A DNA stretch of 64,000 nt from Styela clava (GCF_964204865.1 NC_135255.1:13454001-13518000), one strand, 5' to 3'; shown: positions 494 through 63,782, counted from the first letter of the stretch. Translations and numbers: made by a program. The notes: generated by a model not told the origin, from the letters alone.

Positions 494-497
494 TAGG

Positions 498-23343: not shown

Positions 23344-23419
23344 CTCCCCCCCAGTCTATGAATGCAATGAAAAAGACGATAATATTGAACATTGTTGATT
23401 CGGAGTAACTGATATGAGA

Positions 23420-37000: not shown

Positions 37001-39381
37001 TCATAATTGGTGCTATGATGTCTTAAAATCTTGGTACCAATACCGTAACCTTTGATGCACAGAGGGTCATATAGAAATGGTTATCTGGCCAGATTGGTTC
37101 AACAGTTATTGTTAATATATACCTTCAACATTGGAGCATTAATAAACATCGTTAGTCAAATGAACTTAACTTATTGAGACAATGTAACTATTTATTACGA
37201 AATTCGAATGATAAGAAATATACTTGAAAATGATTATATGTGATCAAAAAAATAATTCTTACTACAACAATGGTAAAACCTTTAAAAATTTGGCGATTAT
37301 AATAATTGAAGTTGAGTTCGTTGCAACACTGTTTGCAAAAGCCATCTTATAGTAACATCTGGTGATAAACCATTTACAGGGATCCCACCTTATAAAGAGA
37401 AAGAATATTGATAACAAACAACAATAAAATTTACGAAAAGGTCCCAAAGTCAAAAACAAAGTAAAAGAATAACGTAAAAATCCCCTTCAACATTATTCAG
37501 CAAGTTTGAAATGAGTTGATCGTAAAGAAATTCCCTTTTTACAACATTTAAATCCTACGTCGGAAGCTGTAAAACAAGTCAAACAATCTTGTGGCATTAT
37601 GGAATTAGAGGGGTAGCAAACCAACTCCTGGCTAACTACTTGACCAATAGAATGCAATTTGTTCAAATTGGTTCATACTGTTCTCTTACCTTGCCTGTGC
37701 CCTCCAGGGATCTTGCTTGTGTCTCAACATCATTCTTAATTTTTTCTCAATGATCTTCCCCACAGTTTCACACTATTTTCAAAATTGTTCGCTGATGACA
37801 CAAACCTTCATGATAGCGACAAGTCTCCGGATGTGCTTGAGTCCAGAGTGAACACTAAAATACAAAAAAGTAGCAAATTGATGAAACTTAAACTGACATT
37901 GAATGTTGAAAAATCAAAAACTATGCTATTGCGGTAAGGATGCTGTATCGGCTCAGGTTTTTCTCTTCAATTTCAACTTTGTACATGGTTTACTTTGTCT
38001 TGTTCCAGTCTCATTTGCAATATGGAATTGTAGCTTGGGGATCAGCTAAGAAAACCATTCTACGTAGAATCGAGATAATTCAAAACAGCGCTATGCGTGC
38101 TGTACTCTTTGCTGGACCAATGTCAAAAATAAACCCCCACTACCATAAGATGCAACTAATCAATATGGCAGATATTTATAAAAGCGAGGTATTAAAACTC
38201 ATGCACCAGCACCATAAAACTGCCTACTGCATTTTGTCAAACAAACCAGTGTACACTCTTGTGCAACTCGGTCCGCTGCCAATAGCCCATACTATGTGCC
38301 TCGCTATTCCACCAATCAGCCAATTGTTCTAGATTTATATGGAATGAGTGTTATCTTTATTTGTCCATGTTTTTTATAATATGCTATCACCATCACCATC
38401 ACCATAATTACCGTACTTTCATCAACACTGTGGTTTACTTTGTTTCCAGTATTATTTGCTCCCCCCTGACAGAGCAAAATAACTCCAGTATGACTTTTTC
38501 CCACAAGTATTTTACCTCAATATCCTCAAGATTCCTTAATAGGCTATCCATCATCATTATATAAATTCGCATAAATGTTGTATTTTTACCCAAATAGTAT
38601 GTGCACCTTGCAAGAGTCATAGCACAAAATAACTTTATAGCTTATGAACTTTTCCAATACTTGGATAAAGGCAAACTTCATTTAATATTCTGTTACCTTT
38701 AATACTATAATAGTCAATGTTCCATAACAGGCTAATCATCATTGTATCATTATATTCCATATACGTTGTTTAATATTTTCCAATATCATGTGTGGCATCG
38801 CAATCAAACTTAAAACTGACATTTTTCACCTAAAATCCAGTTTATGTATTTCTAGTTTCCACTATTGTTGCGGAGAATCCCCTATGTGGTTATATCGATA
38901 AGCCTTGTCACCTCTGTGAAGCTACAGCTGGTAGAAATTTGACTTTCGTGTGCAGCCATCGATGTAATTTCGTGATGTAATGTACGTACTTTTGATAAAT
39001 AGGGGTATCTCCAACAGGGGAGTACCACAATTTCATAGTTCGAGTAGTTTTAGGTTCAAGGTGTGTGAAAAACTTTAAAACCCTAAATGATCTTCAGCAG
39101 TCAGGGTAATAGTCAACTAAACTATCAATTATGTAAAACTGTTTTGTTAACATTACATGATGAATTTTTTTGTCAAAGAGTTCTCAAACATAACATCAAA
39201 TGCAAACTGGAAACACAAATAAGATTTGAATCTAGAATTCACAACAAACAGAACAAAATGTAATTTTCATTTTCTGAATAAAATAGTCAACTGTGATGAT
39301 TCAGAATCGAGAATTTCCAACATGAATATAAATTATTTTCAAACAGAGATAACTAAATTTTTCATTTTCTAAATATAATAG

Positions 39382-40218
39382 TCAACTGCGAAGTCTTTTA
39401 CAAGAATAATTGTTATCGGATGGAACTTCGCAAAACCCAAATGAATTTTGACCAAGCAACACAAGCATGTAGAGATATTGGTATGAATATTGGATACATT
39501 GAAGATGAAATACAGTTAGTCAGATCAAAATCAACATTATCTCATACAGGATACTGGACAGGACTATTGTACATAAACTCAGTGAGTATTTAAATTTGAT
39601 TCATAATGAATATGATGAACTACTGCTTCTTCATCATTTCTTCTCATTAGATTATCCATGATTCAGCTCAGTTTAGGCTCGGCGGTGTGTATAACATGAT
39701 GCTAAGCGTTGAGAAAATGCTTGCCACCCACAGCACCTCTGATTATCCTGCGTGGGTTCGCAGGCCCGAATCCTGTGTGGGTTAATTATGTACAAGATGA
39801 ATGCAGGACTCTTCGACTTTGTAGGGGGATTCACATAACCGCTGGTCGGTTACGTCTTCCTTCACCATCAAGTCCATGCATCCAAGAACAAAAAATGGCT
39901 GACTAATCACATACCCAACATGAACTGTTAATCGGACAAAAGGTCAAAGTCTTCCATATGATTATTATTAAACTGCCTTATTGTCCCCCCCTGATTAATA
40001 TGTAACTCCTATCTTATTTATTTCAGCAACTTGTGACTCTTTCTGGAGATCCATCACCCTTCACTAAATGGCATCCAAGTAAACCCAATATTGGTGCGCA
40101 ATACAAAAATGTGTACATTTGGGTCAATAAAGGTACAGGAAATGTATACCAGGGCATGGATAACTACATTCCAACACACAAACAAGCTGGAGTGTTATGT
40201 CAAATCATGAATACTTAA
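39382..40218 (+). other. Orphan CTLD exon pair B1 (no signal/collagen exon); pseudogene or alternative 3' cassette
   Basis: Exons 39382-39581 (in-frame 18-nt deletion, HYQKIAE to Q) and 40027-40218 are open with intact splice sites. Only a 3' remnant of the neck exon remains at about 39086-39105. Confidence 0.75.
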
Positions 40219-40543
40219 GATCAAATTAACAAGATCGGATTAGCAAGCATTGTCCACAGAGTTCTTTTCGTTAACTTCTCTGATCACACAATACTACAAT
40301 GCTAGTTTTATCGACAATATCCAAACTCAATAAAGCATATGATGAACTATTTAACTTCATGAATAATCATTTTATTTACAATCATCGATTCTGACTTATA
40401 TAGGTGGCATTGTGTTTTGCTTTTTGTTTTCATTGGCAACAAATATATAAATATTAAAAAATAAAGAAATACAATATTTATAAAATATAGAGATGGGGGA
40501 AGTTAAAGTACAATGATACCTCGGTAGTGGAATGACCTGGTAT

Positions 40544-41579
40544 CAAGGCTGTCCAAGTGAACCAAACATTCGAAATCGAAACGCAAATTATTCGAAGCGT
40601 TTTTCGGCCAATTGGGAATCACCAAAATTTGGTACATAATGCGCCTCACGACCACCTTTGCAGCGCGTTTTCCACCGAGCAAGCAAAAACGTATTTCTAT
40701 CGCTCTCTTTGCTGTAAAACGGTGTCTCTCTTATTGCCCGGTGACATGTAATCATCCATTTCATGCATGGTCATAAATGAAAAGTCATCGGTAACAAAGA
40801 TCTAAAGATGACGTTTTTTGAGAGAACACAAAAAAAAGGCAATTCAATATCAACAAAGACGCCAGTTCTATAAATAGAATCGATTTGTAGCTGTAGAGTC
40901 AGTAATCATAGGAACATGGTACAGGGCTGAGACATATTCTGGAGCTTGGAGGTACAATTCCTTTTTTCAATGAAATTTGTTATTTCTTCTAATGGCAATA
41001 CTTTGTACTGTATTACCCATCTATTACTATGACAAATAATTGCACGCTTGCATAATGATGGCTGCTGTACAGCAACAATATGGTCATCAAACTAGCTCTG
41101 AATTTGTGAGTTCCCGAAATGCAATTCTAAATTTTTTGGGCAACAGTTATATCTACATTAATAGTTGTTTATCATTTTGCTGAAAATTAAACAGAAAATC
41201 TTGAGTTAATAATACTAATGATAATAGGATAAAAATAGCAAATACAGGATTTGCATGCCCTATTGAAACTCAATCCATTAAAACTGAGTAAATAACGCAA
41301 TGATGAAGGTCTTTGCAATTTACAACTCTTAAAACTTGATAGTTTCCGAAACCCTAATATTTTGACCAGTTCAAGGAGGCTCGTGATCTCCTTTTATAAC
41401 TCTGGAAACATAATTATGCAAAATAGTAGCAATAATTTAGATGTAACTGCACATTCGTTATAACACTATCGAAGAGGAAGTTTTTATTGTACAATAGAAC
41501 CAAATTTAGGATTGCGCAGTAATATTCGATTATTCGGTTCAATTCGAATAAAAAAAATTATCGATTTTGGACAGCCCTA
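40544..41579. mobile_element. Non-autonomous hAT (Ac-like) element
   Basis: TIR (T/C)A(A/G)GGCTGTCCAA...TTGGACAGCCCTA, 8-bp TSD CCTGGTAT, subterminal ATTCGA repeats. Copies at 51220-52256 and 60460-~61230 (3'-deleted). Confidence 0.8.
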
Positions 41580-43003
41580 CCTGGTATTTGAACATTCGGC
41601 AGTCGACCAAAGAATTATAGTCAAAAATACTGCGGTATTTAAACAGAAATTAGGTGCTCGAACACCCGAGCATGCGGCCGAGTGAAATCACATTACTTGA
41701 ACCACGATCTCGGCTGCCTCTCGACTACTTAACAAGAGAGCGATGCTCAAATATATGAACACGAAAGACAAAACAAAGATGTATGATTTCTGTTACAATA
41801 GACTGCCGGTACACCTATTTTCACGACTAACGAGGAAGCAGAACCGCCACTAGATGGACAATTTTTTTGCATTCATCGAAAACAATAAACAAATCCCATG
41901 GAAGCCACAGATTTTTAATTTCATTATGTTTAATCTTTATTATGTACACATTTAAATAATTATTGTTGTTTAAATACACTTTCTGTTGATAGTTAGTCAA
42001 AAGCATATTACATTACATAGACTGTCTAATATATTATATTCTTTAATTTAACATTTCTCACCATTTCCTCACTTTTCTCCTCGACCTCCTCTTTCTCTTC
42101 TGTATCCTCTGTCTTCTCCTCTTCCACTTTTTTCTTCTTATTTACAGTGGAATACACAGGTTCTTTATCTGGTAGAAGCGGGAAATTTATGATTATTATA
42201 GAGTTAACAATTTTAATTTATTGCTCGTTTAATTTTGCCACCTAAGATGGGAGGATAAGTCGTAACCCGTAACTGACCAACGGTTTTGTGAACCACCCTA
42301 TGGCGACGAGGAGTCCAGCAATCTTCTCGCACATAATTATCCACCACAAGATTCGAACTTGTGAACCCAAGCAGGGTAATCAGAGGTGGCGAGCGTATTC
42401 CTAACATTTTTTTTATTTTTATATACTTTTCAAGAAATAATAATTTAGATAATTTAGTGCCATGTTTTTGTGGCTCAGTTGTAGTTGCAAAAAACATTGT
42501 TAATAACTTTTTTCAAGCTGCAAAAAACATTTAAATGCCCAAATGTCTGTGTTTTCGGTATTTCATCATTTCCTTGCACGAACAGGTCAAGACTTTGGTA
42601 TTGACAACAATACCAAAAGCGCAGAAATTTCACAGCCAAATAGTGTGGGAAACAAGTTTTTTGCAATTTCCCAAGACAGTTCAAAACACCCCACAACAAA
42701 AATAGCATTTTTTAGTCCTTAGAATTTAATGGCTGAAAACAACAAAGCATCTGAAAATGACCCAAAGGCATCAACCCAATATAAATACTCTACTTGCTAC
42801 AGTATGTTGCCTAATACAGTAGGTTAGCAAGCATAGATGTCTTTGCCCCAACTATATAAATTACAGAAAGAGTAAGTTATAAGTTTTATTGAAGTGGACT
42901 TGCAAGTGGATTAGTTGATGCAATATATAGCGTATATATATATATTCGATTCAATATAACCTACCAGCTGTGTTTTAATGTTAGCTTCAAACAGGCGTTG
43001 AAT

Positions 43004-44756
43004 ATGAGTAAGGGTATACTATATTGGATGTTTTTGAGCATTCAATTGCTCGTCAATCAAGTATATTGCAATCAAAGAATTTGCATGCAAATTGAAAATG
43101 TCAATGCAGAAGAAACGTACCCAATTCCACCACAACAAAGTTCACAGGGTGTTCCGGGCAAACGTGGACCACCTGGTGAAATTGGACCAAAAGGATCACA
43201 GGGGCCCAGAGGACCAAAAGGAATTGTTGATTATGAAAGAATTAATGCAGCAATAGAATCAGGTAATTTAAATTAATATTGGTCGTAAGCATCAGTGGGG
43301 CTTGTACAAAGCCTTGTTTGAAGTGGAAGATCTTGCAAAAATTACAGATTTCCGTATATAAGAATATACTGAAGTTTACTTCTTATTGTATATATATATA
43401 TATATAGTTTACATCTTTTTAAATGATGATATAATGACTGTCTGTATAAATGGACTTGGTATAGACAGAACTTAATAATTGGGTTTGTGCAGAACATCCA
43501 AGTATGTTATGTTGTGGACTTCATTTACTCATACATTGGTAAAATTAAAACAATGTATCCCTAATTTTGATGCTTTTATAAAATTTAGTTTGTTTGATTT
43601 GTATTATTACTTCAGCGACCCATACTTTTTTATTTAACCCATTGCAGCGATAAATGAGCTGCGGACAGAAACGGAAGAGAAGATGAATAAAACTATGAAT
43701 GATCTTCAGCAGAGGATGGGTAATAGTTACTAAACTATCAATTATGCAAAATTTTTTTGTTAACATTACATGATGAATTTTTTGTCAAAGAGTTTTGTCT
43801 CAAATATAAAATCAAATGCAAACTAGAAACCTAAAAATTGTTCGACAAATATGATTTAGAATCTTAGAATTCCCAACACAAAATTAATTTTTTCTCAAAC
43901 AGAGATAAATGAAATTTTCATTTTCTAAATATAATAGTCAACTGTGATGTCCTTCACATGAATAATTGTTATCGGATGATACTTCGTGGAACCAAAATGA
44001 ATTTTGACCAAGCAACACAAGCATGTGGAGATATTGGTATGAATATTGGATACATTCAAGATGGAACACATTATCAAAAAATAGCAGAGTTAGTCAGATC
44101 AAAATCAACATCATCTCTTACAGGATACTGGACAGGACTATTGTACATAAACTCAGTGAGTATTTAAATATGATTCATAACGAATATGGTGAACCAGCAA
44201 TTTTTTATCATTTCTATCACATTAAACTATCATTGACTTATCTCGGCTTAGGCTTAGAGCATAGTGCCAAACGTTAGGAATACGCTTGCCACAACACCTC
44301 TGATTACCCTGGGTGGGTTGGATGGTCCGATCCTGTGTGGGATAACTATGTACCAGATAATTGCTGGATTCCTCGCTTCCATAGGGTGGTTCACATAACC
44401 ACTGTCCACTGGTCAGTTACAGCTTCCTTCACCGTCAAGTTCATGCATCAGAAAACTGGCTAACTAACCCCATAACCAACATGACTGGGTTCCCCATATC
44501 ATTATTAAGTCACCTTATCGTCTCACCCTTGATACATATGTAACTCCCATCCTATCTATTTCAGCAACTTGTGACACTTTCTGGAAATCCATCACCATTC
44601 ACTAAATGGCATCCGGGTACACCCAGAAGTGGTGAGCAATACAAAAATGTGTTCATTTATGTCAGGAAAGATACAGGAAATGTTTACCAGGGCATGGATA
44701 ACTACATTCCAACACACAAACAAGCTGGAGTGTTATGTCAAATCATGAATACTTAA
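43004..44756 (+). CDS. Mini-collectin 3, intact, 246 aa
   Basis: Exons 43004-43262, 43648-43719, 43938-44155, 44565-44756 are in frame. Confidence 0.88.
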
Positions 44757-45340
44757 GATCGGATTAAAAGCATTATCCACAGAGTTATATTTGTTAACTT
44801 CTCTGATCACACAATACTACAATGCTAGTTATATTGTCAATATTCAAATAACGTAAATCGTATGGTGCACCTGATTACAGAATTCCATTTTTTATGTTTA
44901 TTTTATGATTTGATTAATATCTTGCTTGATATCAATCCTCCATGAGATGACTATGGTCAAAATTAATATTATATAAATAATGAAAAATAAAAAAGTATGG
45001 TATATATAAAAGATAGAAATGGGAGAAGCATATTTGATTATTAAAGCAGTTGTTTTGTGGAAAACAGCAAATTTCCATTTTATGACAGTTGAAGGATTAA
45101 TTAACATTAACAAACAGACAATTTTTCCTAATACCATTAATTCTTTGGAAGGGAATTTGATGAAAAAACAATGTCATGCGCACTCTAAAATAAAGGAAAT
45201 TGATAACCACTGAAGTATAAAGAGCTACTGAGATTATAAGAATTTTGATGTAGAATTCAGTGTTGGTGCATGTGTATTCAAAATATAATGCAATAAACGT
45301 AATAAAGGATCTATAATTAGAAAACATCTCAATACCATAC

Positions 45341-48300
45341 CTGTGTGGCAGCTAAGCTGTCTCCCCTCTTCACCAAAACATCTGCCCACATCATAGAAAT
45401 ATCAGTCACTTTCTTTTTCATCTGTCTTATCGTTTCCTCATTTAATAACAGTTTTTGTATCGCAGTAGTCATAGTTTTACACAAAAAACTGTAAATCCAA
45501 GAGAAAATTTTTTTCTCCAATGAAAATGATGTTATAAATATAACTTTGCCATTGTCAAGATAGAGTTTGTAAAACTTCATTTGTCTTTTCCTATTTTTTC
45601 TAACAAAAATGAAAATGAGATAGACAAGAAGAAATTGAAAACTCAGTCAAACCTTTCCTCTTATTACTAGAATCTTATCATTTTCAGGAACAAATTATTA
45701 AAGTTACAAAATTTCTGACATTACATTTTGATAAATGTGGAATGAAAATTTACATTTAGTTTTGAATTTGCGATAATCTTTAGAATAGAAAGACATAAAT
45801 CAGAATGATATGTTTAATTTGTTACTGTATATATGATACTATGTAAATAAAATCATTCAGTTATTCAGTTGTTTTATTCGTCGATCATGGGGGAATGCAA
45901 CATAGAATTCAATGAAAGGAATAAACAAGTTATAAAGTACTGGTTAGGATGAAGTTAAAAAAATAGAGGATTCTCAATTCTTACTTGCAACTATTAGCAG
46001 CGTCCAATTTTTGCTGAGATATTTCCAATCGCATTTTTTCCCGAAGTAATTGTAACGCTGATAATGGATCTTCAGTTGATGAAGAATTCTTGATAGCAAC
46101 TGAATCAATCATAATTATAGTAAAATTCGGTGTAACTTTGAAAAATCAGAAATACAAATGACAGAACTGCCCTAAGGAGTGAAACCATTGAATGGATCAA
46201 ATATCTAACTGCTAAGGGTGAGGAACATGATTGTCACCACTCTGATTACATGTGTAAGTTCGCAGGTTTGAATCCTGTGAGAGATAATTATGAGCGAGAA
46301 AATGGCATGATTACTCGCTGCCATAGGGTGGTTCACGTGACTGCAAACTCATCCCATACCCAACATGGACCGGGAACTGGACAAGAAGCTGTAGTTCATC
46401 ATGTGATATAGCAGTCTTAATGGCATTCCCCTCTGCCAGAATAAATATGTGGATCATCTCCTATGATAATACCTATGATATAGTCCTAATTGCCATTATA
46501 TCAAAATTCATACCCTACAGACACACTCCTATTCTTATATTTTCAAATTTTATCTATGCGAATTTTTTAGTCTTAACGAGAGAAAATATATTTTCATATG
46601 TATTTGGAATGGTAAATTATTTAGTTTGGCCATCCCGGACCCTCACCGTTATCCGAGTGAACAGGTCATAAAGCGTTGAGAATCACCCCCAATGGGCATA
46701 TTCGATAGTCTATTAGGCTACTCACCGTCAAGGTCAGCATGCAGGTTAGAATAGAAATTTTCATCAAGTTTATTCCTTGAATTAAAGTCAAGCTGAACTT
46801 CTAATCCTGGATAAACTTTGATCTCGATATAATTTCGAGCATTGTATGCAGAGCTGAAAAGCGACAAAAAAAATGATATGTATTTCTGCTCAGTACAGAA
46901 ATTTGACTCACAAATTCAAAGTAATTATGAGAATAACGGATTCAGGTATTTTTTTTCATTGTGCATGAAAAATTCAGTCAGTTTTTAGAGTCTGTAAATC
47001 TGAATATTGAAATTTCAAAGGAGTAAAGGATATGTATTTCTGCTCAATATAGAAATTTGACTCACTCACAAATACAAAGTAATTATGGGAATAACGGATT
47101 CAGGTATTTATTTTCACTGTGCATGAAAAATTTAGTCAGTTTTTAGTTTTTATAGTCTGTAAATTTGACTATTGCAATTTTCAAAAGAGTAAATGAGAAA
47201 ACAATAACACATAAAAAGCAGTGCTGTTTTGACAGCAAAAGAATAGGATGTTTCACTAAATAGTGCATTGTGAAAAAAAAACAATAAAACAGCTCAACCA
47301 ATAACCATATTGCAAACCATAACATATCCTATTATTCGATTGCTAGTCTACCTTGTGTATAAGGAAAAGGTAACTAATTGATCATTTGAGATAGATGGAT
47401 ATGGATAAAACTTGGTATTGTTTTTAGACGCTCACTTGCACCTTTCGCTGCCTACAACACCCTGTACCTGTAGCAACTGAGAACTCACTCAAACCCAATC
47501 AAAATTTATGGAGCTACTGCTATTCGAACGGCCACAGATCTTGCCAGTTAGGCATTGCCTACACATTTTTATAATACCTTGGGTGAGGTGGGACTCATGG
47601 GATATTAACCAAAGATGTTTAATATTATTAAAGTAAACATAAAACTCAATTTTTGTTACATTACCTTATATTTGGAAAAAAGCACTGTGGAAGAGTATTG
47701 AAATGCACGACGTTTAAATATGCCAACCAGGATGATTAAGATCAGTCGACGTCAAACATCTATTCGAAGAAGATGTAGAAAAGGTGGGAAACTTCTGACA
47801 TTGTGGAGAGAATTCTTTTACTGTTACCTGTAGAAATGTTTTCGAATGTTGGAGGGGCAAAAGTCGTAAATTAAGGTCAGTCTAGATAAGGATTATTCAA
47901 AATGAACCTTCCGCTCCACTAGGGGACCACAGAGAATTTCCCTCTGGGCAAAAAGAACTTTAACTAGGTTTCATTCACGATGACGATGACAGATCTAGAT
48001 TAACATTCCAATTTATCGAGTAAAATCTTGTCTGATATTATGCAGAAAATTTGAAAAAAAAAAAAAAAAAAATAACTTCTTTTGAAATATTTTGCTCTCG
48101 GTCACGAATTATACATATGGATAGCTATACTATTTCTCATTGTTGTTATTCTTGTTGACGTTATTTGGAAAAAAAGGCCAGTACTGCTTGATTTTTCATT
48201 TTTAGTACTTAGATAGAAAAAGTTGCAAATTTGCTATTGCTTTTATTTTATTTCTCAAATTTTTCTATGAGACCATTATATTTACAAAAAACTTTTAGGG

Positions 48301-48920
48301 CTTTAATTAAAGGGGACACTTTTTTATTCCATCATACTGGTCTTTTTTGTCATAGATGGTGCTATGAGGTCTTAAAATCCTGGTACCGATACCGTAACCT
48401 TTGATGCACAGAGGGTCATATAGAAATGGTTATCTGGCCAGATTGGTTCAACAGTTATTGTTAATATATGCCTTCAACATTGGAGCATTAATAAACATCG
48501 TTAGACAAATGAACTTAACTTATTGAGACAATGTAACTATTTATCACGAAATTCGAATTATTAGAAATATACTTGAAAATGATTAATTTGATCAAAAAAA
48601 TAATTCTTACTTTCAACAATGGTAAAACCTTTAAGAATTTGGCGATTAGAATAATTGAAGTTGAGTTTGTCGCAACACTGTTTGCAAAAGCCATCTTGAA
48701 GTAACATCTGGTGATAAACCATTTACAGGGATCCCACCTTATAAAGAGAAAGAATATTGATAACAAACAACAATAAAATTTACGAAAAGGTCCCAAAGTC
48801 AAAAACAAAGTAAAAGAATAACGTAAAAATCCCCTTCAACATTATTCAGCAAGTTTGAAATGAGTTGATCGTAAAGAAATTCCCTTTTTACAACATTTAA
48901 ATCCTACGTCGGAAGCTGTA
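45341..48920 (-). pseudogene. ZFC3H1: ZFC3H1-like fragment, copy 3
   Basis: Paralogous exons (..WADVLVKRGDSLAATQ; LWLAY exon with the same 1-nt deletion as copy 2). The downstream exons are absent. Confidence 0.65.
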
Positions 48921-50060
48921 AAACAAGTCAAACAATCTTGTGGCATTATGGAATTAGAGGGGTAGCAAACCAACTCCTGGCAACTACTTGACCAATAGAA
49001 TGCAATTTGTTCAAATTGGTTCATACTGTTCCCCTACCTTGCCTGTGTCCTCCAGGGATCTTGCTTGTGTCTCAACATTATTCTTCATTTTTATCAATGA
49101 TCTTCCCCACAGCTTCACACTATTTTCAAAATTTTTCGCTGATGACCCCAATCTTCATGATAGCGACAAGTCTCCGGATGTGCTTGAGTCAAGAGTGAAC
49201 ACTAAAATACAAAAAAGTAGCGAATTGATGAAACTTAAACTAACATTGAATGTTGAAAAATCAAAAACTATGCTATTGCGGTAAGGATGCTGTATCGGCT
49301 CAGGTTTTTCTCTTCAATTTCAACTTTGTACATGGTTTACTTCACCTTATTTCAGTCTCATTTGCAATATGGATTTGTAGCTTGGGGATCATCTAAGAAA
49401 ACCTTTCTACGTCGCATCAAAATATTTCAAAACAGCGCTATGCGTGTTGTACTCTTTGCTGGACCAATGTCAAAATTAAACCCCCACTAAGATGCAATTA
49501 ATCAAAATGGCAGATATTTATAAAAGCGAGGTATTAAAACTCATGCACCAGCACCATAAAACTGCCTACTGCATTTTGTCAAACAAACCAGTTGCCAGTG
49601 TACACTCTTGTGCAACTCGGTCCGCTGCCAATAGCCCATACCATGTGCCTCGCCTCGCTATTCCACCAATCAGCCAATTGTTCTAGATTTATATGGAATG
49701 AGTGTTATCTTTATTTGTCCATGTTTTTTATAATATGCTATCACCATCACCATCACCATAATTACCGTACTCTCATCAACACTGTGGTTTACTTTGTTTC
49801 CAGTATTATTTGCTCCCCCCTGACAGAGCAAAATAACTCCAGTATGACTTTTTCCCACAAGTATTTTACCTCAATATCCTCAAGATTCCTTAATAGGCTA
49901 TTCATCATTCAACTGTTTTGTTAACATTACATGATGAATTTTTTTGTCAAAGAGTTCTCAAACATAAAATCAAATGCAAACTGGAAACACAAATAAGATT
50001 TGAATCTAGAATTCCCAACAAACAGAACAAAATGTAATTTTCATTTTCTAAATATAATAG

Positions 50061-50894
50061 TCAACTGCGAAGTCTTTTACAAGAATAATTGTTATCGGAT
50101 GGAACTTCGCAAAACCCAAATGAATTTTGACCAAGCAACACAAGCATGTAGAGATATTGGTATGAATATTGGATACATTGAAGATGAAACACAGTTAGTC
50201 AGATCAAAATCAACATTATCTCATACAGGATACTGGACAGGACTATTGTACATAAACTCAGTGAGTATTTAAATTTGATTCATAATGAATATGATGAACT
50301 ACTGCTTCTTCATCATTTCTTCTCATTAGATTATCCATGATTCAGCTCAGTTTAGGCTCGGCGGTGTGTATAACATGATGCTAAGCGTTGAGAAAATGCT
50401 CGCCACAGCACCTCTGATTATCCTGCGTGGGTTCGCAGGCCCGAATCCTGTGTGGGTTAATTATGTACAAGATGAATGCAGGACTCCTCGACTTTGTAGG
50501 GGGATTCACATAACCGCTGGTCGGTTACGTCTTCCTTCACCATCAAGTCCATGCATCCAAGAACAAAAAATGGCTGACTAATCACATACCCAACATGAAC
50601 TGTTAATCGGACAAAAGGTCAAAGTCTTCCATATGATTAATATTAAACTACCTTATTGTCTCCCCCCTGATTAATATGTAACTCCTATCTTATTTATTTC
50701 AGCAACTTGTGACTCTTTCTGGAGATCCATCACCATTCACTAGATGGCATCCAAGTAAACCCAATATTGGTGCGCAATACAAAAATGTGTACATTTGGGT
50801 CAATAAAGATACAGGAAATGTATACCAGAGCATGGATAACTACATTCCAACACACAAACAAGCTGGAGTGTTATGTCAAATCATGAATACTTAA
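50061..50894 (+). other. Orphan CTLD exon pair B2
   Basis: Exons 50061-50260 and 50703-50894 are open with the same 18-nt deletion. The neck remnant was removed by a deletion near 49910. Confidence 0.75.
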
Positions 50895-51219
50895 GATCAA
50901 ATTAACAAGATCGGATTAGCAAGCATTGTCCACAGAGTTCTTTTCGTTAACTTCTCTGATCACACAATACTACAATGCTAGTTTTATCGACAATATCCAA
51001 ACTCAATAAAGCATATGATGAACTATTTAACTTCATGAATAATCATTTTATTTACAATCATCGATTCTGACTTATATAGGTGGCATTGTGTTTTGCTTTT
51101 TGTTTGCATTGGCAACAAATATATAAATATTAAAAAATAAAGAAATACAATATTTATAAAATATAGAGATGGGGGAAGTTAAAGTACAATGATACCTCGG
51201 TAGTGGAATGACCTGGTAT

Positions 51220-52256
51220 CAAGGCTGTCCAAGTGAACCAAATATTCGAAATCGAAACGCATATTATTCAAAGCGTTTTTCGGCCAATTTGGGAATCACT
51301 AAAATTTGGTACATAATGCGCCTCACGACCACCTTTGCAGCGCGTTTTTCACCGAGCAAGCAAGAACGTATTTCTATCGCTCTCTTTGCTGTAAAACGGT
51401 GTCTCTCCTATTGCCTAGTGACATGTAATCATCCATTTCATGCATGGTCATAAATGAAAAGTCATCGGTAACAAAGATTTAAAGATGACGTTTTTTGAGA
51501 GAACACAAAAAAAAGGCAATTCAATATCACCAAAGACGCCAGTTCTATAAATAGAATCGATTTGTAGCTGTAGAGTCAGTAATCATAGGAACATGGTACA
51601 GGGCTGAGACATGTTCTGGAGCTTGGAGGTACAATTCCTTTTTTCAATGAAATTTGTTATTTCTTCTAATGGCAATACTTTGTACTGTATTACCCATCTA
51701 TTACTATGACAAATAATTGCACGCTCGCATAATGATGGCTGCTGTACAGCAACAATATGGTCATCAAACTAGCTCTGAATTTGTGAGTTCCCGAAATGCA
51801 ATTCTAAATTTTTTGGGCAACAGTTATATCTATATTAATAGTTGTTTATCATTTTGCTGAAAATTAAACAGAAAATCTTGAGTTAATAATACTAATGATA
51901 ATAGGATAAAAATAGCAAATACAGGATTTGCATGCCCTATTGAAACTCAATCCATTAAAACTGAGTAAATAACGCAATGATGAAGGTCTTTGCAATTTAC
52001 AACTCTTAAAACTTGATAGTTTCCGAAACCCTAATATTTTGACCAGTTCAAGAAGGCTCGTGATCTCCTTTTATAACTCTGGAAACATAATTATGCAAAA
52101 TAGTAGCAATAATTTAGATGTAACTGCACATTCGTTATAACACTATCGAAGAGGAAGTTTTTATTGTACAATAGAACCAAATTTAGGATTGCGCAGTAAT
52201 ATTCGATTATTCGGTTCAATTCGAATAAAAAAAATTATCGATTTTGGACAGCCCTA
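51220..52256. mobile_element. hAT element, copy of 40544-41579
   Basis: Same TIRs and CCTGGTAT TSD, so it was duplicated with the segment. Confidence 0.8.
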
Positions 52257-53346
52257 CCTGGTATTTGAACATTCGGCAGTCGACCAAAGAATTATAGTCA
52301 AAAATACTGCGGTATTTAAACAGAAATTAGGTGCTCGAACACCCGAGCATGCGGCCGAGTGAAATCACATTACTTGAACCACGATCTCGGCTGCCTCTCG
52401 ACTACTTAACAAGAGAGCGATGCTCAAATATATGAACACGAAAGACAAAACAAAGATGTATGATTTCTGTTACAATAGACTGCCGGTACACCTATTTTCA
52501 CGACTAACGAGGAAGCAGAACCGCCACTAGATGGACAATTTTTTTGCATTCATCGAAAACAACATACAAATCCCACAGATTTTTAACTTCATTATGTTTA
52601 ATCTTTATTATGTACACATTTAAATAATTATTGTTGTTTAAATACACTTTCTGTTGATAGTTCGTCAAAAACATATTACATTACATAGACTGTCTAATAT
52701 ATTATATTCTTTAATTTAACATTTCTCATTTATTACCATAAGTCATATATTTTTTTTATTTTTATATACTTTTCAAGAAATAATAATTTAGATAATTTAG
52801 TGCCATGTTTTTGTGGCTCAGTTGTAGTTGCAAAAAACATTGTTAATAACTTTTTTCAAGCTGCAAAAAACATTCAAATGCCCAAATGTCTGTGTTTTCG
52901 GTATTTCATCATTTCCTTGCACGAACAGGTCGAGACTTTGGTATTGACAACAATACCAGAAGCGCAGAAATTTCACAGCCAAATAGTGTGGGAAACAAGT
53001 TTTTTGCAATTTCCCAAAAAAGTTCAAAACACCCCACAACAAAAATAGCATTTTTTAGTCGTTAGAATTTAATGGCTGAAAACAACAAAGCATCTGAAAA
53101 TGACCCAAAGGCATCAACCAAATATAAATACTTTACTTGCTACAGTATGTTGCCTAATACAGTAGGTTAGCAAGCATAGATGTCTTTGCCCCAACTATAT
53201 AAATTACAGAAAGAGTAAGTTATAAGTTTTATTGAAGTGGGCTTGCAAGTGGATTAGTTGATGCAATATAAAGCGTATATATATATATTCGATTCATCAT
53301 AACCTACCAGCTGTGTTTTAATGTTAGCTTTAAACAGGCGTTGAAT

Positions 53347-55318
53347 ATGAGTAAGGGTATACTATATTGTATGTTTTTGAGCATTCAATTGCTCGTCAAT
53401 CAAGTATATTGCAATCAAAGAATTTGCATGCAAATTGAAAATGTCAATGCAGAAGAAACCTACCCAATTCCACCACAACAAAGTTCACAGGGTGTTCCGG
53501 GCAAACGTGGACCACCTGGTGAAATTGGCCCGAAAGGATCACAGGGGCCCAGAGGACCAAAAGGAATTGTTGATTATGAAAGAATTAATGCAGCAATAGA
53601 ATCAGGTAATTTAAATTAATATTGGTCGTAAGCATCAGTGGGGCTTGTACAAAGTCTTGCAAAAATTACAGATTTCCATATATAAGAATATATATTGAAG
53701 TTTACTTCTTATTGTATATATATATAGTTTAAGAAATCTTTTTAAATGATGATATAATGACTGTCAGTATGGACTTGGTTTAGACCAGGGATGGCGAACC
53801 ACTGACCCGCGGGTCACAAAGTAACCCAACGCGTTTTATTCTTGACCCGCCAAGGCACTAATAAAATAAAAATGCTAACATATCACTGATGAGAGGTGAT
53901 AAAACCGGTCTTAAATTAATCTAACAATAACTAAACTATTATAATGTACCGTCAGTTGGTCATGACTGCGATCGCTCATATTTAAGTTGTTAATTTCCGG
54001 GCCGGTATGGTAATTTCCTAAACCTTTAATCTTGGGCGCATGTGTGCACCGTTCGTTATTCAACTATTGGCTCTGACATAACAATGCAATTGCTACTTTG
54101 CATTTTATTAGTTTCTCGCCTACAATGCCGTTGAGAAATCAAAATATTCCAGACTTGAAATAAAAACCGAGAAATCTGAAACAACAATGGGGCAGTGTAA
54201 AAGTTCCTTAATGTGGTTGAAAGCTGATCTAAAAATATAAAACTATCAGAGTGGAATTCTTGCCAAACTCTTTGGATCCGGAAAAGAATTTGCCGCATCG
54301 TCCTAAGCGTTTTTGGCGATTCATATGCGTGTTTTCGTACTCTGATTCCATAAAATCGAGTGAAATAAAAAGTCCCCGATTAAAGTGATGCATAAGTGAA
54401 ACCCAAAACTACAACAACAGCAACAGAAGCTTATAAGATTTGTTTCAGAAGTTTCTCATAGATACAAACATTGATTAAATATATGTGACCCACTCTCTTC
54501 TGTTCCGCGATAAAAATATAATTTTTGACCCATTCATTGGAAAAGGTTCGCCATCCCTGATAGACAAAACTTAATAATGGGGTTTGTGCAGAACATCCAA
54601 GTATGTTATGTTGTGAACTTTATTCACTCATTCATTGGTAAAATTAAAACCATGTATCACTAATTTTGATGCTTTTATAAAATTTAGTTTGTTTGATTTG
54701 TATTATTACTTCAGCGACCTATACTTTTATATTTAATCCATTGCAGCGATAAATGATCTGCGGACAGAAATGGAAGAGAAAATGAATAATGTCAACAAAA
54801 CCATGAATGATCTTCAGCAGAGGATGGGTAATAGTGCACTAAACTATCAATTATGTAAAACTGTTTTGTTAACATTACATGATGAATTTTTTGTCAGAGT
54901 TCTCAAACATAAAATTAAATGCGAATTGGAAACACAAATAAGATTTGAATTTATAATTCTTAACAAATAGAACTAAATGTAATTTTCATTTTCTAAATAA
55001 AATAGTTAACTGCGATGATTCAGAATCGAGAATTTCCAACATTAATATAAATTATTTTCAAACCGAAATACCTAAATTTTTCATTTTCTAAATATAATAG
55101 TCAACTGCGAAGTCTTTTACAAGAATAATTGTTATCGGATGAAACTTCGCAAAACCAAAATGGATTTTGACCAAGCAACGCAAGCATGTAGATATATTGG
55201 TATGAATATTGGATACATTGAAGATGAAACACATTACCAAAAAATAGCAGAGTTAGTCAGATCAAAATCAACATTGTTTCAAACAGGATACTGGACAGGG
55301 CTATTGTACATAAACTCA
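53347..55318 (+). CDS. Mini-collectin 4, exons 1-3 open but own exon 4 deleted
   Basis: Exons 53347-53605, 54747-54827 (+9 nt), 55101-55318. Intron 3 is fused near 55695 to the paralog of about 11719. Confidence 0.7.
53786..54559. mobile_element. hAT MITE in collectin intron 1
   Basis: TIR CAGGGATGGCGAACC...GGTTCGCCATCCCTG; imperfect TSD (GTTTAGAC / ATAGAC); empty site GTATAGAC in genes 1-3. Confidence 0.85.
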
Positions 55319-55694
55319 GTGAGTATTTAAATTTGATTCATAACGAATATGGTGAACCAGCAAATATTTATCATTTCTATCACATTAAACTATCATTGAC
55401 TTATCTCGGATTAGGCTCAGAGCATAGTGCCAAACGTTAGGAATATGCTTGCCCCAACACCTCTGATTACCCTGCGTGGGTTGGATGGTCCGATCCTGTG
55501 TGGGATAACTATGTACAAGATGATTGCTGGATTCCTCGCTTACATAGGGTGGTTCACATAACTGCTGGTCAGTTACAGCTTCCTTCACTGTCAAGTTCAT
55601 GCATCAGAAAACTGGCCAACTAACCCCATACCCAACATGACTGGTACCCGTACAAGAGGCTGCGGTTCCCCATATCAATATTAAGTCGCCTTAT

Positions 55695-57470
55695 CTTTGA
55701 TCCCGAGATAATTTCGAGCATTGCATGCAGAGCTAAAAGTGACAAATAAATGATATGTATTTCTGCTCAATATAGAAATTTGACTCACTCACAAACTCAA
55801 AGTAATTAAGAGATTAACGGATTCAGGTATTTATTTTTAATGAGAAAACAAGGACAAGGGAGTGCTGCTTTGAGAGCAATAGGATAGAATGTTTCATATT
55901 TGATAGGATATTGTGGAGGAAAAAACAATAAAATAGCTCAATAACCACATTATACACCACAACATATCCTATTATTCGATTGCTAGGGTACATTAGGTAT
56001 GGGGAAAAGGTAACCAATTGAATATTTGAAATAGATAATGTGGATGTGGATAAAACTTGGCATTTTTGGACGCTCACTCGCAACTTCCGCTGCCTACAAC
56101 GCCCTGTACAGGTAGCAATTGGGAACTCACTCAAACCCAATCAAAATTTATGAAGCTACTGCTATTCAAACGACCCCGAATCTTCCCAGTTAGGCATTGC
56201 ATTTTTATAATACCCTGGGTGAGGTGGGACTTGGAAAGCACTGTGGGAGAGTATTGAAATGCACGACGTTAAAATATGCCAACCAAAGATGATTAAGATC
56301 AGTCGACGTCAAACATCTATTCATAGAAGATGTAGAAAAGGTAGGAAACTTCTGACATTGTGGAGAGAATTCTTTTACCGTTACCTGTAGAAATATTTTC
56401 GAATTTTGGAGGGGCAAAAGTTGTAAATTAAGGTCAGTCTAGATAAGGGTTATTCAAAATGAACCTTCCGCTCCACTAGTGGACCACAGAAAGTTTCCCT
56501 CTGGGCAAAAAGCACTTTAACTAGGTATCATTCATGATGACGATGACAGATCTAGATTAACAGTCCAAGTTATCGAGTAAAATCTTGTCTGTTATTATTA
56601 TGCAGAAAATTTGAAAATTTAAAAAAAAAAAAAAAATTTCTTTTGAAATATTTTGCTCTCGGTCACGAATTATACATATGATCGCTATACTATTTCTCAT
56701 TGTTGTTATTCTTGTTGACATTATTTGGAAAAAATGGCCAGTACTGCTTGATTTCTCATTTTTAGTACTTAGATAGAAAAAGTTGCAAATTTGCTATTGC
56801 TTTTATTTTATTTCTCAAATTTTTCTATGAGACCATTATAATTACGAAAAACTTTTAGGGCTTTAATTAAAGGGGACACTTTTTTATTTCATCACACTGG
56901 TCTTTTTTGTCATAATTGGTGCTATGAGGTCTTAAATTCCTGGTACCGATACCGTAACCTTTGATGCACAGAAGGTCATATAGAAATGGTTATCTGGCCT
57001 GATTGGTTCAACAGTTATTTTTAATATATGCCTTCAACATTGAAGCATTAATAAACATCGCTAGTCAAATGAACTTAACTTATTGAGACAATGTAACTAT
57101 TTATTACGAAATTCGAATGATAAGAAATATACTTGAAAATGATTAATTTGATCAAAAAAATAAATATTACTTACAACAATGGTAAAACCTTATTAAATAT
57201 AATAATTGAAGTTGAGTTCGTTGCAACACTGTTTGCAAAAGCCATCTTGAAGTAACATCTGGTGATAAACCATTTACAGGGATCCCACCTTATAAAGAGA
57301 AAGAATATTGATAACAAACAACAATAAAATTTACGAAAAGGTCCCAAAGTCAAAAACAAAGTAAAAGAATAACGTAAAAATCACCTTCAACATTATTCAG
57401 CAAGTTTGAAATGAGTTGATCGTAAAGAAATTCCCTTTTTACAATATTTAAATCCTACGTCGGAAGCTGT
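55695..57470 (-). pseudogene. ZFC3H1: ZFC3H1-like fragment, copy 4
   Basis: VTVKEFSPQCQKFPTF..LWLAYFNVVHFNTLPQC exon plus degraded upstream exons, with several deletions. Confidence 0.6.
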
Positions 57471-59280
57471 AAAACAAGTCAAACAATCTTGTGGCATTAT
57501 GGAATTAGAGGGGTAGCAAACCAACTCCTGGCTAACTACTTGACCAATAGAATGCAATTTGTTCAAATTGGTTCATACTGTTCTCTTACCTTGCCTGTGT
57601 CCTCCAGGGATCTTGCTTGTGTCTCAACATCATTCTTAATTTTTTCTCAATGATCTTCCCCACAGTTTCACACTATTTTCAAAATTGTTCGCTGATGACA
57701 CAAACCTTCATGATAGCGACAAGTCTCCGGATGTGCTTGAGTCCAGAGTGAACACTAAAATACAAAAAAGTAGCAAATTGATGAAACTTAAACTGACATT
57801 GAATGTTGAAAAATCAAAAACTATGCTATTGCGGTAAGGATGCTGTATCGGCTCAGGTTTTTCTCTTCAATTTCAACTTTGTACATGGTTTACTTTGTCT
57901 TGTTCCAGTCTCATTTGCAATATGGAATTGTAGCTTGGGGATCAGCTAAGAAAACCATTCTACGTAGAATCGAGATAATTCAAAACAGCGCTATGCGTGC
58001 TGTACTCTTTGCTGGACCAATGTCAAAAATAAACCCCCACTACCATAAGATGCAACTAATCAAAATGGCAGATATTTTTAAAAGCGAGGTATTAGAACTC
58101 ATCACCAGCACCATAAAACTGCCTACTGCATTTTGTCAAACAAACCAGTGTACACTCTTGTGCAACTCGGTCCGCTGCCAATAGCCCATACTATGTGCCT
58201 CGCTATTCCACCAATTAGCCAATTGTTCTAGATATAATACCTGGAATGAGTGTTATCTTTATTTGTCCATGTTTTTTATAATATGCTATCACCATCACCA
58301 TCACCATAATAATTTTCATCACCACTGTGGTTTACTTTGTTTCTAGTATTATTTGCTCCCACCTGACAGAGAAAAATAACTCCAGTATGACTTTTTCCCA
58401 CAAGTATTTTACCTCAATATCCTCAAGATTACTTAATAGGCTATTCATCATCATTATATAAATTTGCATAAATGTTGTATTTTTACCCAAATAGTATGTG
58501 CACCTTGCAAGAGTCATAGCACAAAATAACTTTATGTCTTATGAACTTTTCCAATAACTGAATAAAGGCAAACTTCATTTAATATTCTGTTACCTTTAAT
58601 ACTGTAATAGTCAATGTTCCATAACAGGCTAATCATCATTGTATCATTATATTCCATATACGTTGTTTAATATTTTCCAATATCATGTGTGGCATCGCAA
58701 TCAAACTTAAAACTGACATTTTTCACCTAAAATTCAGTTTATGTATTTCTAGTTTCCACTATTGTTGCGGAGAATCCCCTATGTGGTTATATCGATAAGC
58801 CTTGTCACCTCTGTTAAGCTACAGCTGGTAGAAATTTGACTTTCGTGTGCAGCCATCGATGTAATTTTGTGATGTAATGTACGTTCTTCTGATAAATAGG
58901 GGTATCTCCAACATGGGAGTACCACAATTTCATAGTTCGAGTAGTTTTAGGTTCAAGGTGTGTGAAAAACTTTAAAACCCTAAATGATCTTCAGCAGAGG
59001 ATGGGTAATAGTCAACTAAACTATCAATTATGTAAAACTGTTTTGTTAACACTACATGATGAATTTTTTTGTCAAAGAGTTCTCAAACATAACATCAAAT
59101 GCAAACTGGAAACACAAATAAGATTTGAATCTAGAATTCCCAACAAACAGAACAAAATGTAATTTTCATTTTCTAAATAAAATAGTCAACTGTGATGATT
59201 CAGAATCGAGAATTTCCAACATGAATATAAATTATTTTCAAACCGAGATAACTAAATTTTTCATTTTCTAAATATAATAG

Positions 59281-60114
59281 TCAACTGCGAAGTCTTTTAC
59301 AAGAATAATTGTTATCGGATGGAACTTCGCAAAACCCAAATGAATTTTGACCAAGCAACGCAAGCATGTAGAGATATTGGTATGAATATTGGATACATCG
59401 AAGATGAAACACAGTTAGTCAGATCAAAATCAACATTATCTCATACAGGATACTGGACAGGACTATTGTACATAAACTCAGTGAGTATTTAAATTTGATT
59501 CATAATGAATATGATGAACTACTGCTTCTTCATCATTTCTTCTCATTAGATTATCCATGATTCAGCTCAATTTAGGCTCGGCGGTGTGTATAACATGATG
59601 CTAAGCGTTGAGAAAATGCTTGCCACAGCACCTCTGATTATCCTGTGTGGGTTCGCAGGCCCGAATCCTGTGTGGGTTAATTATGTACAAGATGAATGCA
59701 GGACTCCTCGACTTTGTAGGGGGATTCACATAACCGCTGGTCGGTTACGACTTCCTCCACCATCAAGTCCATGCATCCAAGAACAAAAAATGGCTGACTA
59801 ATCACATACCCAACATGAACTGTCAATCGGACAAAAGGTCAAAGTCTTCCATATGATTAATATTAAACTACCTTATTGTATCCCCCCTGATTAATATGTA
59901 ACTCCTATCTTATTTATTTCAGCAACTTGTGACTCTTTCTGGAGATCCATCACCATTCACTAAATGGCATCCAAGTAAACCCAATATTAGTGCGCAATAC
60001 AAAAATGTGTACATTTGGGTCAATAAAGATACCGGAAGTGTATACCAGGGCATGGATAACTACATTCCAACACACAAACAAGCTGGAGTGTTATGTCAAA
60101 TCATGCATACTTAA
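59281..60114 (+). other. Orphan CTLD exon pair B3
   Basis: Exons 59281-59480 and 59923-60114 are open. A neck remnant with its donor ends at 59004. Confidence 0.75.
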
Positions 60115-62134: not shown

Positions 62135-63782
62135 ATGAGTAAGGGTATACTATATTGGATGTGTTTGAGCATTCAATTGCTCGTCAATCAAGTATATTGC
62201 AATCAAAGAATTTGCATGCAAATTGAAAATGTCAATGCAGAAGAAACATACCCAATTCCACCACAACGAAGTTCACAGGGTGTTCCGGGCAAACGTGGAC
62301 CACCTGGTGAAATTGGCCCGAAAGGATCACAGGGGCCCATAGGACCAAAAGGAATTGTTGATTATGAAAGAATTAATGCAGCAATAGAATCAGGTAATTT
62401 AAATTAATATTGGTCGTAAGCATCAGTGGGGCTTGTACAAACTCTTGCAAAAATTACAGATTTCCATATATAAGAATATATTGAAGTTTACTTCTTATTG
62501 TATATATATATAGTTTACATCTTTTTAAATGATGATATAATGACTGTCAGTATGGACTTGGTTTAGACCAGGGATGGCGAACCACTGACCCGCGGGTCAC
62601 AAAGTAACCCAACGCGTTTTATTCTTGACCCGCCAAGGCACTAATAAAATAAAAATGCTAACATATCACTGATGAGAGGTGATAAAACCGGTCTTTAATT
62701 AATCTAACAATAACTAAACTATTATAATGTACCGTCAGTTGGTTATGACTGCGATAGCTCATATTTAAGTTGTTAATTTCCGGGCCGGTATGGTAATTTC
62801 CTAAACCTCTAATCTTGGGCGCATGTATGCACCGTTCGTTATTCAACTATTGGCTCTGACATAACAATGCAATTGCTACTTTGCATTTTATTAGTTTCTC
62901 GCCTACAATGCAGTTGAGAAATCAAAATATTCCAGACTTGAAATAAAAACCGAGAAATCTGAAACAACAATGGGGCAGTGTAAAAGTGCCTTAATGTGGT
63001 TGAAAGGTTCGCCATCCCTGATAGACAAAACTTAATAATGGGGTTTGTGCAGAACATCCAAGTATGTTATGTTGTGAACTTTATTCACTCATTCATTGGT
63101 AAAATTAAAACCATGTATCACTAATTTTGATGCTTTTATAAAATTTAGTTTGTTCGATTTGTATTATTACTTCAGCGACCCATACTTTTATATTTAATCC
63201 ATTGCAGCGATAAATGATCTGCGGACAGAAACGGAAGAGAAAATGAATAATGTCAACAAAACCATGAATGATCTTCAGCAGAGGATGGGTAATAAGCGAC
63301 TAAACTATCAATTATGTAAAACTGTTTTGTTAACATTACATGATGAATTTTTTGTCACAGAGTTCTCAAACATAAAATTAAATGCAAATTGGAAACACAA
63401 ATAGGATTTGAATCTATAATTCCCAACAAATAGAACTAAATGTAATTTTCATTTTCTAAATAAAATAGTCAACTGCGATGATTCAGAATCGAGAATTTCC
63501 AACATTAATATAAATTATTTTCAAACCGAAATACCTAAATTTTTCATTTTCTAAATATAATAGTCAACTGCGAAGTCTTTTACAAGAATAATTGTTATCG
63601 GATGGAACTTCACAAAACCCAAAATGAATTTTGATCAAGCAACACAAGCATGTAGAGATATTGGTATGAATATTGGATACATTCAAGATGAAACACATTA
63701 TCAAAAAATAGCAGAGTTAGTCAGATCAAAATCAACATTATCTAAAACAGGATACTGGACAGGACTATTGTACATAAACTCA
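62135..63782 (+). pseudogene. Mini-collectin 5, +1 frameshift in exon 3; exon 4 would lie beyond the window
   Basis: Exons 62135-62393, 63208-63288, 63564-63782 (219 vs 218 nt). ACCCAAAATG leads to TGA at 63632-63634. Confidence 0.65.
62569..63020. mobile_element. Internally deleted copy of the 53786 hAT MITE
   Basis: Same TIRs and insertion site; about 320 bp shorter. Confidence 0.85.

What the first reader, a model, noticed from the sequence alone, without database searches (positions are those of the whole stretch)
39382..60114. Three orphan CTLD exon pairs downstream of full genes: possible alternative 3' head cassettes
The pattern gene-then-orphan occurs three times (gene 2 then B1, gene 3 then B2, gene 4 then B3). 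Each orphan lacks promoter, signal and collagen exons yet keeps open frames, a phase-1 acceptor, a phase-0 internal intron and the normal stop. These phases allow the upstream neck exon to splice onto orphan exon 3, or upstream exon 3 onto orphan exon 4. One stalk could then be combined with different heads. The shared 6-aa deletion in helix 2 of orphan exon 3 may instead mark them as pseudogenes or conversion donors.
Basis: inference. Interest (0 to 1): 0.7.

Follow-up and report, generated by a model that had tools for sequence, protein, structure and literature searches.

The report
Front-truncated collectin copies in tandem array
In a sea-squirt array of 30 immune-lectin-like gene copies, the three 'orphan' exon pairs are copies that lost their front end in one shared deletion; they are likely decaying leftovers that swap sequence with intact genes, although one database gene model predicts that an intact neighbour borrows an orphan's last exon.

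Summary
The three exon pairs are real, open and correctly phased. They lie in a Styela clava tandem array of 30 collectin-like units on 340 kb; 18 have a full ORF and 12 are damaged. B1, B3 and a fourth orphan outside the window (B0) keep about 30 nt of neck exon behind one shared deletion junction; B2 lost it by a second deletion. So this is one truncation copied several times, and the phases are inherited. Gene 4 is not full (exon 4 deleted) and gene 5 is frameshifted. The 6-aa deletion removes a stretch that is ungapped in 35 of 35 distant homologs, so splicing to orphan exon 3 likely gives a broken head. Divergence among B1-B3 does not differ from neutral (open frames by chance about 0.11). 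RNA contigs of three runs cross the orphan exon-4 acceptor unspliced. That annotation also holds another cross-unit chimera. Verdict: birth-and-death debris and recombination donor (0.6); borrowed last exon remains open (0.22).

The parts
32270..34017 (+). Gene 2, intact collectin-like gene (exons 32270-32528, 32899-32970, 33179-33396, 33826-34017; the RefSeq models use an exon-3 acceptor 9 nt upstream)
38980..39076 (.). Last part of a 196-bp satellite monomer of the normal spacer, cut at the deletion junction of B1
39077..39105 (+). B1 remnant of neck exon 2 with donor; 2 nt shorter than in B0/B3, so out of phase
39382..39581 (+). B1 exon 3, open, 18-nt in-frame deletion near 39512
40027..40218 (+). 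B1 exon 4, open, normal stop; last exon of RefSeq model XP_077970026.1 (gene 2 isoform X2)
43004..44756 (+). Gene 3, intact (exons 43004-43262, 43648-43719, 43938-44155, 44565-44756)
49910..49911 (.). Second deletion junction that removed the satellite and exon-2 remnant from B2
50061..50260 (+). B2 exon 3, open, same 18-nt deletion
50703..50894 (+). B2 exon 4, open; Gly to Ser in the QGM/HGM motif. RefSeq models B2 alone as a 110-aa protein with no signal, collagen or neck part (XP_077969885.1)
53347..55695 (+). Gene 4, 3'-truncated: exons 1-3 (53347-53605, 54747-54827, 55101-55318), intron 3 cut at 55695, no exon 4
56235..58870 (-). Spliced minus-strand transcript unit of the spacer (introns 56385-57170, 57289-57384, 57467-57589, 57755-58593, all GT-AG on the minus strand), no long ORF; repeated in many spacers, so the transcribed copy is not known
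58880..58973 (.). Satellite monomer fragment at the deletion junction of B3
58974..59004 (+). B3 remnant of neck exon 2 with intact phase-1 donor
59281..59480 (+). B3 exon 3, open, same 18-nt deletion
59923..60114 (+). B3 exon 4, open, normal stop
62135..64000 (+). Gene 5, 1-nt insertion in exon 3 (frameshift); exon 4 lies beyond the window

Best explanation
B1-B3 are copies of one collectin-like gene that lost promoter, exon 1 and most of exon 2 through a single deletion and was then tandemly re-duplicated; they are likely pseudogenes whose main effect is to exchange sequence with intact genes by unequal crossover or gene conversion. Shown: the shared junction between a spacer satellite and the end of exon 2; the near-identity of B1-B3; the mosaic state of B0 (orphan flank, ordinary head); other broken units in the array. 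Inferred: the deletion hit a working gene with a long-diverged 3' half, which explains why exon 4 still looks conserved; the 6-aa deletion came after loss of function and disrupts helix alpha-2; the RefSeq gene 2-B1 isoform reflects leaky read-through, multi-mapping, or reads from animals in which an intact gene carries this exon-4 type.
For: One junction shared by B0, B1, B3, with the 276 nt upstream 98-100% identical; the satellite is a normal part of other spacers, so the junction is a deletion. The junction is bridged by contigs of three runs from two studies (X1 58615-59012, X2 58615-59092, X10 58615-59069). 12 of 30 units are damaged: 4 orphans, 2 without exon 4 through different deletions, 4 frameshifted, 2 with an altered start. 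Since B1-B3 split: 11 of 392 exon columns against 52 of 1582 non-coding columns differ (Fisher p 0.75); 7 nonsynonymous and 4 synonymous (p 0.16 against neutral). The deleted stretch is ungapped in 35 of 35 distant homologs. B2 changed a Gly found in 24 of the other 27 exon-4 copies by the motif search; the 3 non-matches are frameshifted u07, u20 (QGM present) aside, see full report. B0 groups with gene 5 in the 3' tree, not with B1-B3, which shows exchange between an orphan and an intact unit. Orphan-type exon 4 is joined to intron 3 unspliced in RNA-like runs X1, X2, X4.
Against: RefSeq XP_077970026.1 joins gene 2 exon 3 to B1 exon 4. All four orphans have open frames and intact splice sites; for B1-B3 the chance is about 0.11 and pN/pS is 0.44, which leans towards constraint without reaching significance. 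Orphan exon 4 has fewer private changes than its intron and UTR (5 of 184 against 61 of 656, p 0.002), as in the intact u08/u17 lineage (4 of 190 against 42 of 698). No intact gene in this assembly carries this exon-4 type. One X6 contig of orphan exon 4 and UTR starts at 40028, one base inside the exon, a weak hint of splicing. The B-to-gene 3 conversion tract in exon 4 reaches only global p 0.06-0.08.
Confidence: 0.6

Rival explanations
1. Borrowed last exon: the upstream gene reads through its own poly(A) site and splices exon 3 to the orphan exon 4 (introns of 6630, 6547 and 4604 nt), so one stalk carries two versions of the variable ligand loops; orphan exon 3 is skipped and free to decay.
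For: RefSeq model XP_077970026.1. Exon 4 is the diversifying exon of the family (pN/pS 1.39 against 0.22 in exon 1, 16 intact genes). The orphan 3' half has the longest branch of the array (0.2) and occurs only in B1-B3. Exon 4 is intact while exon 3 is damaged. Gene 4 has no exon 4 of its own. X6 contig starts at the exon edge.
Against: The same annotation holds a chimera over 31 kb across two intervening genes (XP_077970029.1) and splits one unit into two genes. Its gene 4 model splices from inside exon 3 to 55828, not to B3; its gene 3 model uses its own exon 4. Contigs of X1, X2, X4 cross the acceptor unspliced. Genes 2 and 3 keep their own AATAAA at +275 and +230; eight AATAAA lie between the gene 4 break and B3. 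A convergent spliced transcript unit lies in the spacer. B2 carries a substitution in a conserved motif.
Confidence: 0.22
2. Regulated head-cassette system as first proposed: neck exon spliced onto orphan exon 3 plus exon 4, giving whole alternative heads.
For: Phases and splice sites allow it. B0 has an undeleted exon 3. Exon 2-to-exon 3 joints were laid onto orphan exon 3.
Against: Those joints have 24-30 letters on the short side, inside the first 56 nt shared with up to seven paralogs, so they are not diagnostic. The deletion removes conserved helix residues. None of the 28 array proteins fetched joins an upstream exon to a deleted exon 3. One origin, not repeated design.
Confidence: 0.05
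3. The triplet is partly an assembly artefact (allelic copies placed in tandem), so the thrice-repeated pattern is inflated.
For: B1-B3 differ by 1-3%, near the 1.72% heterozygosity reported for the species (PMC7540406, passage).
Against: Each unit has its own structural lesions and different neighbours; three copies cannot all be alleles of one diploid; the junction itself is in independent runs.
Confidence: 0.08

Closest known systems
Birth-and-death immune gene arrays with deletions and pseudogenes, e.g. mouse intelectins (PMC8324875, abstract read)
   Same: Tandem secreted innate lectin genes, deletions, pseudogenes, adaptive change in part of the family
   Different: Here the fragments keep open frames and splice sites, and a fragment holds the array's most diverged 3' half
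Sea urchin Sp185/333 clusters (PMC5103432, abstract and section titles read)
   Same: Clustered similar immune genes with segmental duplication, deletion and proposed conversion; repeats near deletion sites
   Different: That paper has a section titled 'There are no pseudogenes'; this array has many broken units and encodes collagen-neck-CTLD proteins
Ascidian collectins / MBL-like genes (expansion reported for S. clava, PMC7540406 passages; review PMC5465252 passages)
   Same: Hydrophobic N-terminus, two N-terminal Cys, 8-9 Gly-X-Y triplets, helical neck, C-type lectin domain
   Different: No EPN, QPD or WND motif in 38 of 38 aligned proteins and only four Cys in the head; sugar binding untested; this array is named 'uncharacterized' in RefSeq
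Chicken Ig pseudo-V conversion donors; Dscam or protocadherin exon cassettes (recalled, not looked up)
   Same: Promoterless coding modules beside expressed genes
   Different: No evidence here of somatic conversion or of regulated exclusive splicing; the modules derive from one deletion, and upstream genes keep their own last exon

Membership tests
5'-truncated unprocessed pseudogene | Genomic (intron-bearing) copy lacking promoter and start, with a definable breakpoint | tested here: met
5'-truncated unprocessed pseudogene | Neutral evolution after truncation | tested here: inconclusive
   7 N / 4 S, p 0.16; exon rate equals flank rate, p 0.75; no stop or frameshift, chance 0.11
5'-truncated unprocessed pseudogene | No contribution to a protein product | tested here: inconclusive
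   Unspliced contigs in three runs against one RefSeq isoform
Alternative last exon / exon cassette | Compatible phases and intact splice sites | tested here: met
   inherited by duplication, so uninformative
Alternative last exon / exon cassette | cDNA linking upstream gene-specific exons to the cassette in cis | not testable with these tools
   Only contigs were served; they break at words shared between paralogs; RefSeq read support not visible
Alternative last exon / exon cassette | Cassette encodes an intact module: exon 3 | tested here: not met
   6-aa gap absent from 35 of 35 distant homologs; folds were too poor to confirm
Alternative last exon / exon cassette | Cassette encodes an intact module: exon 4 | tested here: met
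   Full length, aligns without gaps; B2 has one motif change
Collectin (parent genes) | Collagen triplets + neck + C-type lectin domain | tested here: met
   Lectin_C 23.1 bits, above cut-off, for the gene 2 model; collagen match below cut-off but 8-9 triplets seen directly; CTLD hits in PDB E 0.002-0.009
Collectin (parent genes) | Ca2+/sugar motifs EPN or QPD and WND (motifs recalled) | tested here: not met
   0 of 38 aligned proteins
MBL-type MASP binder | [quoted passage not shown] | tested here: inconclusive
   PGKRGP is present but Xaa is Arg; binding not tested

The most novel reading that the evidence does not exclude
Promoterless duplicates preserve the array's most diverged ligand-loop exon, and intact collectin genes reach it both by read-through splicing of exon 3 to the orphan exon 4 and by germline recombination: a head-swapping reservoir that widens lectin specificity in a chordate without adaptive immunity.
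Probability: 0.2. Interest if true: 0.62.

Novelty: new member of a known kind. Interest (0 to 1): 0.3.

Why it matters
On the best reading it is an ordinary but clear case of turnover in an innate-immune gene array, and a warning that gene models in such arrays can be chimeric. The array itself (30 units, diversifying exon 4, atypical lectin heads) is a usable system for ascidian lectin diversity. If the borrowed last exon is real, a pseudogene fragment would add ligand loops to a neighbour's protein, which one long-read experiment can test.

Tried and rejected
No RNA holder is listed on record; nine runs are guessed RNA, of which five were laid (X1-X4, X6), plus one of four others (X10). X1, X2 and X4 show the spliced exon 1-exon 2 joint that X10 lacks, so they hold spliced RNA. 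No contig of X1, X3 or X6 covers the exon-3 deletion site (bin sums are explained by listed contigs; for X2 only by my estimate from hidden records). This is not evidence, since contigs drop rare variants. No joint from orphan exon 3 to exon 4 is among the 3 of 3 joints, and no 55318-to-59923 joint among the 15 of 57 shown; also not proof of absence. Depths were not used to rank genes. Structure predictions failed (mean pLDDT 32.5 and 38.3): the helix at 153-166 in the intact model and its absence in the B2 model are hints only; no fold search was run on them. The Atlas did not hold the query. A cryptic 54-nt in-frame exon (satellite AG plus remnant) exists in B0 and B3 but is out of frame in B1, and the AG is ordinary satellite sequence; set aside as chance. 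My first idea that the satellite was inserted at the breakpoint was dropped. Sub-threshold Pfam matches to the neck (Ribosomal_S20p, RNA_pol_Rpb1_4, Toxin_trans, DUF7201) were set aside as coiled-coil noise. Earlier findings: none. Seven paper searches listed no paper on this array or on orphan exons in it; the library lacks most subscription papers and I read no supplements (Table S8 of PMC7540406 may list these genes). PMC9953650 and PMC3927609 passages gave nothing that bears on the question.

Full report
Setting. The window is G000:C6:13454001-13518000. NCBI titles of the matching proteins name Styela clava. With 400 kb of neighbouring DNA I mapped 30 same-strand units of a four-exon gene over about 340 kb. 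Exon 1 holds a hydrophobic N-terminus, two Cys and 8-9 collagen triplets, exon 2 the neck, exons 3-4 a C-type lectin domain. Eighteen units have a full ORF. Four are orphans (B0-B3), two lack exon 4 (u06, gene 4), four are frameshifted (u07, u10, u11, gene 5) and two have an altered start (u15, u21). Among 16 of the 18 intact genes, pN/pS is 0.22, 0.40, 0.58 and 1.39 for exons 1-4 (u14 and u19 left out for length differences), so exon 4 is the diversifying part.

Observation. The three exon pairs, phases, open frames, stops, 18-nt deletion and marker peptides are as described. Two statements fail: gene 4 has no exon 4 (break at 55695), and the orphans are not bare exon pairs.

Origin. B0, B1 and B3 carry the last 29-31 nt of exon 2 behind the same junction. 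Left of it lies part of a 196-bp satellite monomer that also sits in other spacers of the array and on other contigs. The junction is thus a deletion from the spacer into exon 2 of the next gene. B2 lost the junction by a second deletion at 49910. Contigs of X1, X2 and X10 bridge the junction, and X1/X2 carry variants that X10 lacks, so it is real and occurs in more than one haplotype. B1-B3 are a clade in the 3' tree (100/100, branch 0.2); B0 groups with gene 5 there although its upstream flank is 98-100% like B1/B3. B0 is therefore a recombinant of an orphan flank and an ordinary head. The B1-B3 5' part is 95-100% like intact u14/u02, the 3' part 74-90% like anything else.

Selection. Across B1-B3, exons differ at 11 of 392 columns and non-coding DNA at 52 of 1582 (p 0.75); 7 changes are nonsynonymous and 4 synonymous (pN/pS 0.44, p 0.16). 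From the flank indel rate and nonsense sites, all three stay open by chance with probability 0.11. The deletion removes six residues in a stretch with no gap in 35 of 35 distant homologs, including His (30 of 35) and Tyr/Phe (29 of 35). By alignment to a solved CTLD and by general knowledge of the fold this is helix alpha-2; both models were too poor to confirm it. B2 has Ser for the Gly of the QGM/HGM motif; that Gly is seen in 26 of the other 27 exon-4 copies, the exception being frameshifted u07 (this count supersedes the looser wording in the evidence cell). Against plain decay: orphan exon 4 has 5 private states in 184 columns, its intron and UTR 61 in 656 (p 0.002), the same pattern as the intact u08/u17 pair. 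A recent truncation of a working gene explains this, as do conversion or continued use. A 72-column identity tract between B1 and gene 3 in exon 4 has pair p 0.006 but global p 0.06.

RNA. Only contigs were available, and 'RNA' is the tool's guess; the spliced exon 1-exon 2 joint in X1, X2, X4 and not in X10 shows that these hold spliced RNA. Orphan-type intron 3 and exon 4 lie on one unspliced contig across the acceptor in X1, X2 (594 nt) and X4 (205 nt). In X6 an exon 4-UTR contig begins at 40028. Exon 2-exon 3 joints laid on the orphans have 24-30 letters on the short side, in sequence shared with paralogs. In X3 a spliced contig has an exon-2 end matching the remnant, continued by ordinary exon-2 sequence: an intact gene of the parental type is expressed in some animals. 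Four CT..AC joints in the spacer reveal a spliced minus-strand unit with canonical sites and no ORF over 63 aa in the five exons joined; the unspliced orphan contigs may belong to it, but strand cannot be read from contigs.

Annotation. Of 28 array proteins fetched, two carry orphan sequence: XP_077970026.1 (gene 2 exons 1-3 + B1 exon 4) and XP_077969885.1 (B2 alone, 110 aa). I could not see its support. That alternative models need transcript evidence is my recollection of the pipeline. The same set has a u07-u10 chimera over 31 kb and one unit split in two, and its gene 4 model does not use B3. The exon-3 end of gene 2 differs from that of the orphans eight bases from the donor, so if reads support the model they came from a non-orphan exon 3: cis read-through, or an intact allele with this exon 4 in another animal. 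No such intact gene is in this assembly.

Mechanism. Most likely (0.6): one deletion, tandem re-duplication, decay, and exchange with intact units; any splicing is leak or mapping. Next (0.22): real use of orphan exon 4 as a second last exon. Whole-head cassettes through exon 3 are unlikely (0.05), as is inflation by assembly (0.08).

Known systems. It works like other birth-and-death immune arrays (PMC8324875 abstract; PMC5103432 abstract and section titles). Expansion of collectin/MBL-like genes in S. clava is already reported (PMC7540406 passages). The parents have collectin architecture but lack EPN/QPD/WND (0 of 38), and match the MASP motif only in part (PMC2592599 passage). Seven searches listed no paper on this array; no supplements were read.

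Verdict. Real feature, mostly ordinary; interest 0.3. One testable open branch: probability 0.2, interest 0.62 if true.

Noticed in passing
window 22884-29323: LTR retrotransposon of Pao/BEL type: two 460-bp repeats 100% identical and an uninterrupted 1809-codon frame on the minus strand with Pao peptidase, RT and DUF5641 matches; a recent insertion upstream of gene 2.
   Followed up: partly
window 56235-58870, minus strand; copies in most spacers: Multi-exon spliced transcript convergent with the collectin genes, partly over LINE-like fragments (recognised by eye), seen in RNA-like runs of two studies and not in the DNA-like run.
   Followed up: partly
G000:C6 about 13396060-13397210 (B0): Fourth orphan with the same junction but an undeleted exon 3 and an ordinary head, open frame; a recombinant.
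   Followed up: yes
G000:C6 about 13321360-13323110 (u06): Second gene without exon 4, from a different deletion that joins intron 3 to the 3' UTR.
   Followed up: partly
whole array, exon 4: pN/pS 1.39 in exon 4 against 0.22 in exon 1; heads lack EPN/WND and two Cys usual in CTLDs, as do the 35 distant homologs for the motifs; eight of nine looked-up... seven of nine named homologs are S. clava proteins on other contigs.
   Followed up: partly
window 53786-54559 and 62570-63019: High-copy element with short terminal inverted repeats in intron 1 of genes 4 and 5 (internally deleted in gene 5); another high-copy element sits in intron 3 of all units.
   Followed up: no
window 492-1162: Cluster of diverged 196-bp satellite monomers; the same satellite forms long arrays on contigs C1, C4, C10, C16.
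   Followed up: partly
window 33170-33178: Gene 2-type units have two in-frame exon-3 acceptors 9 nt apart; RefSeq uses the upstream one, adding three residues.
   Followed up: no
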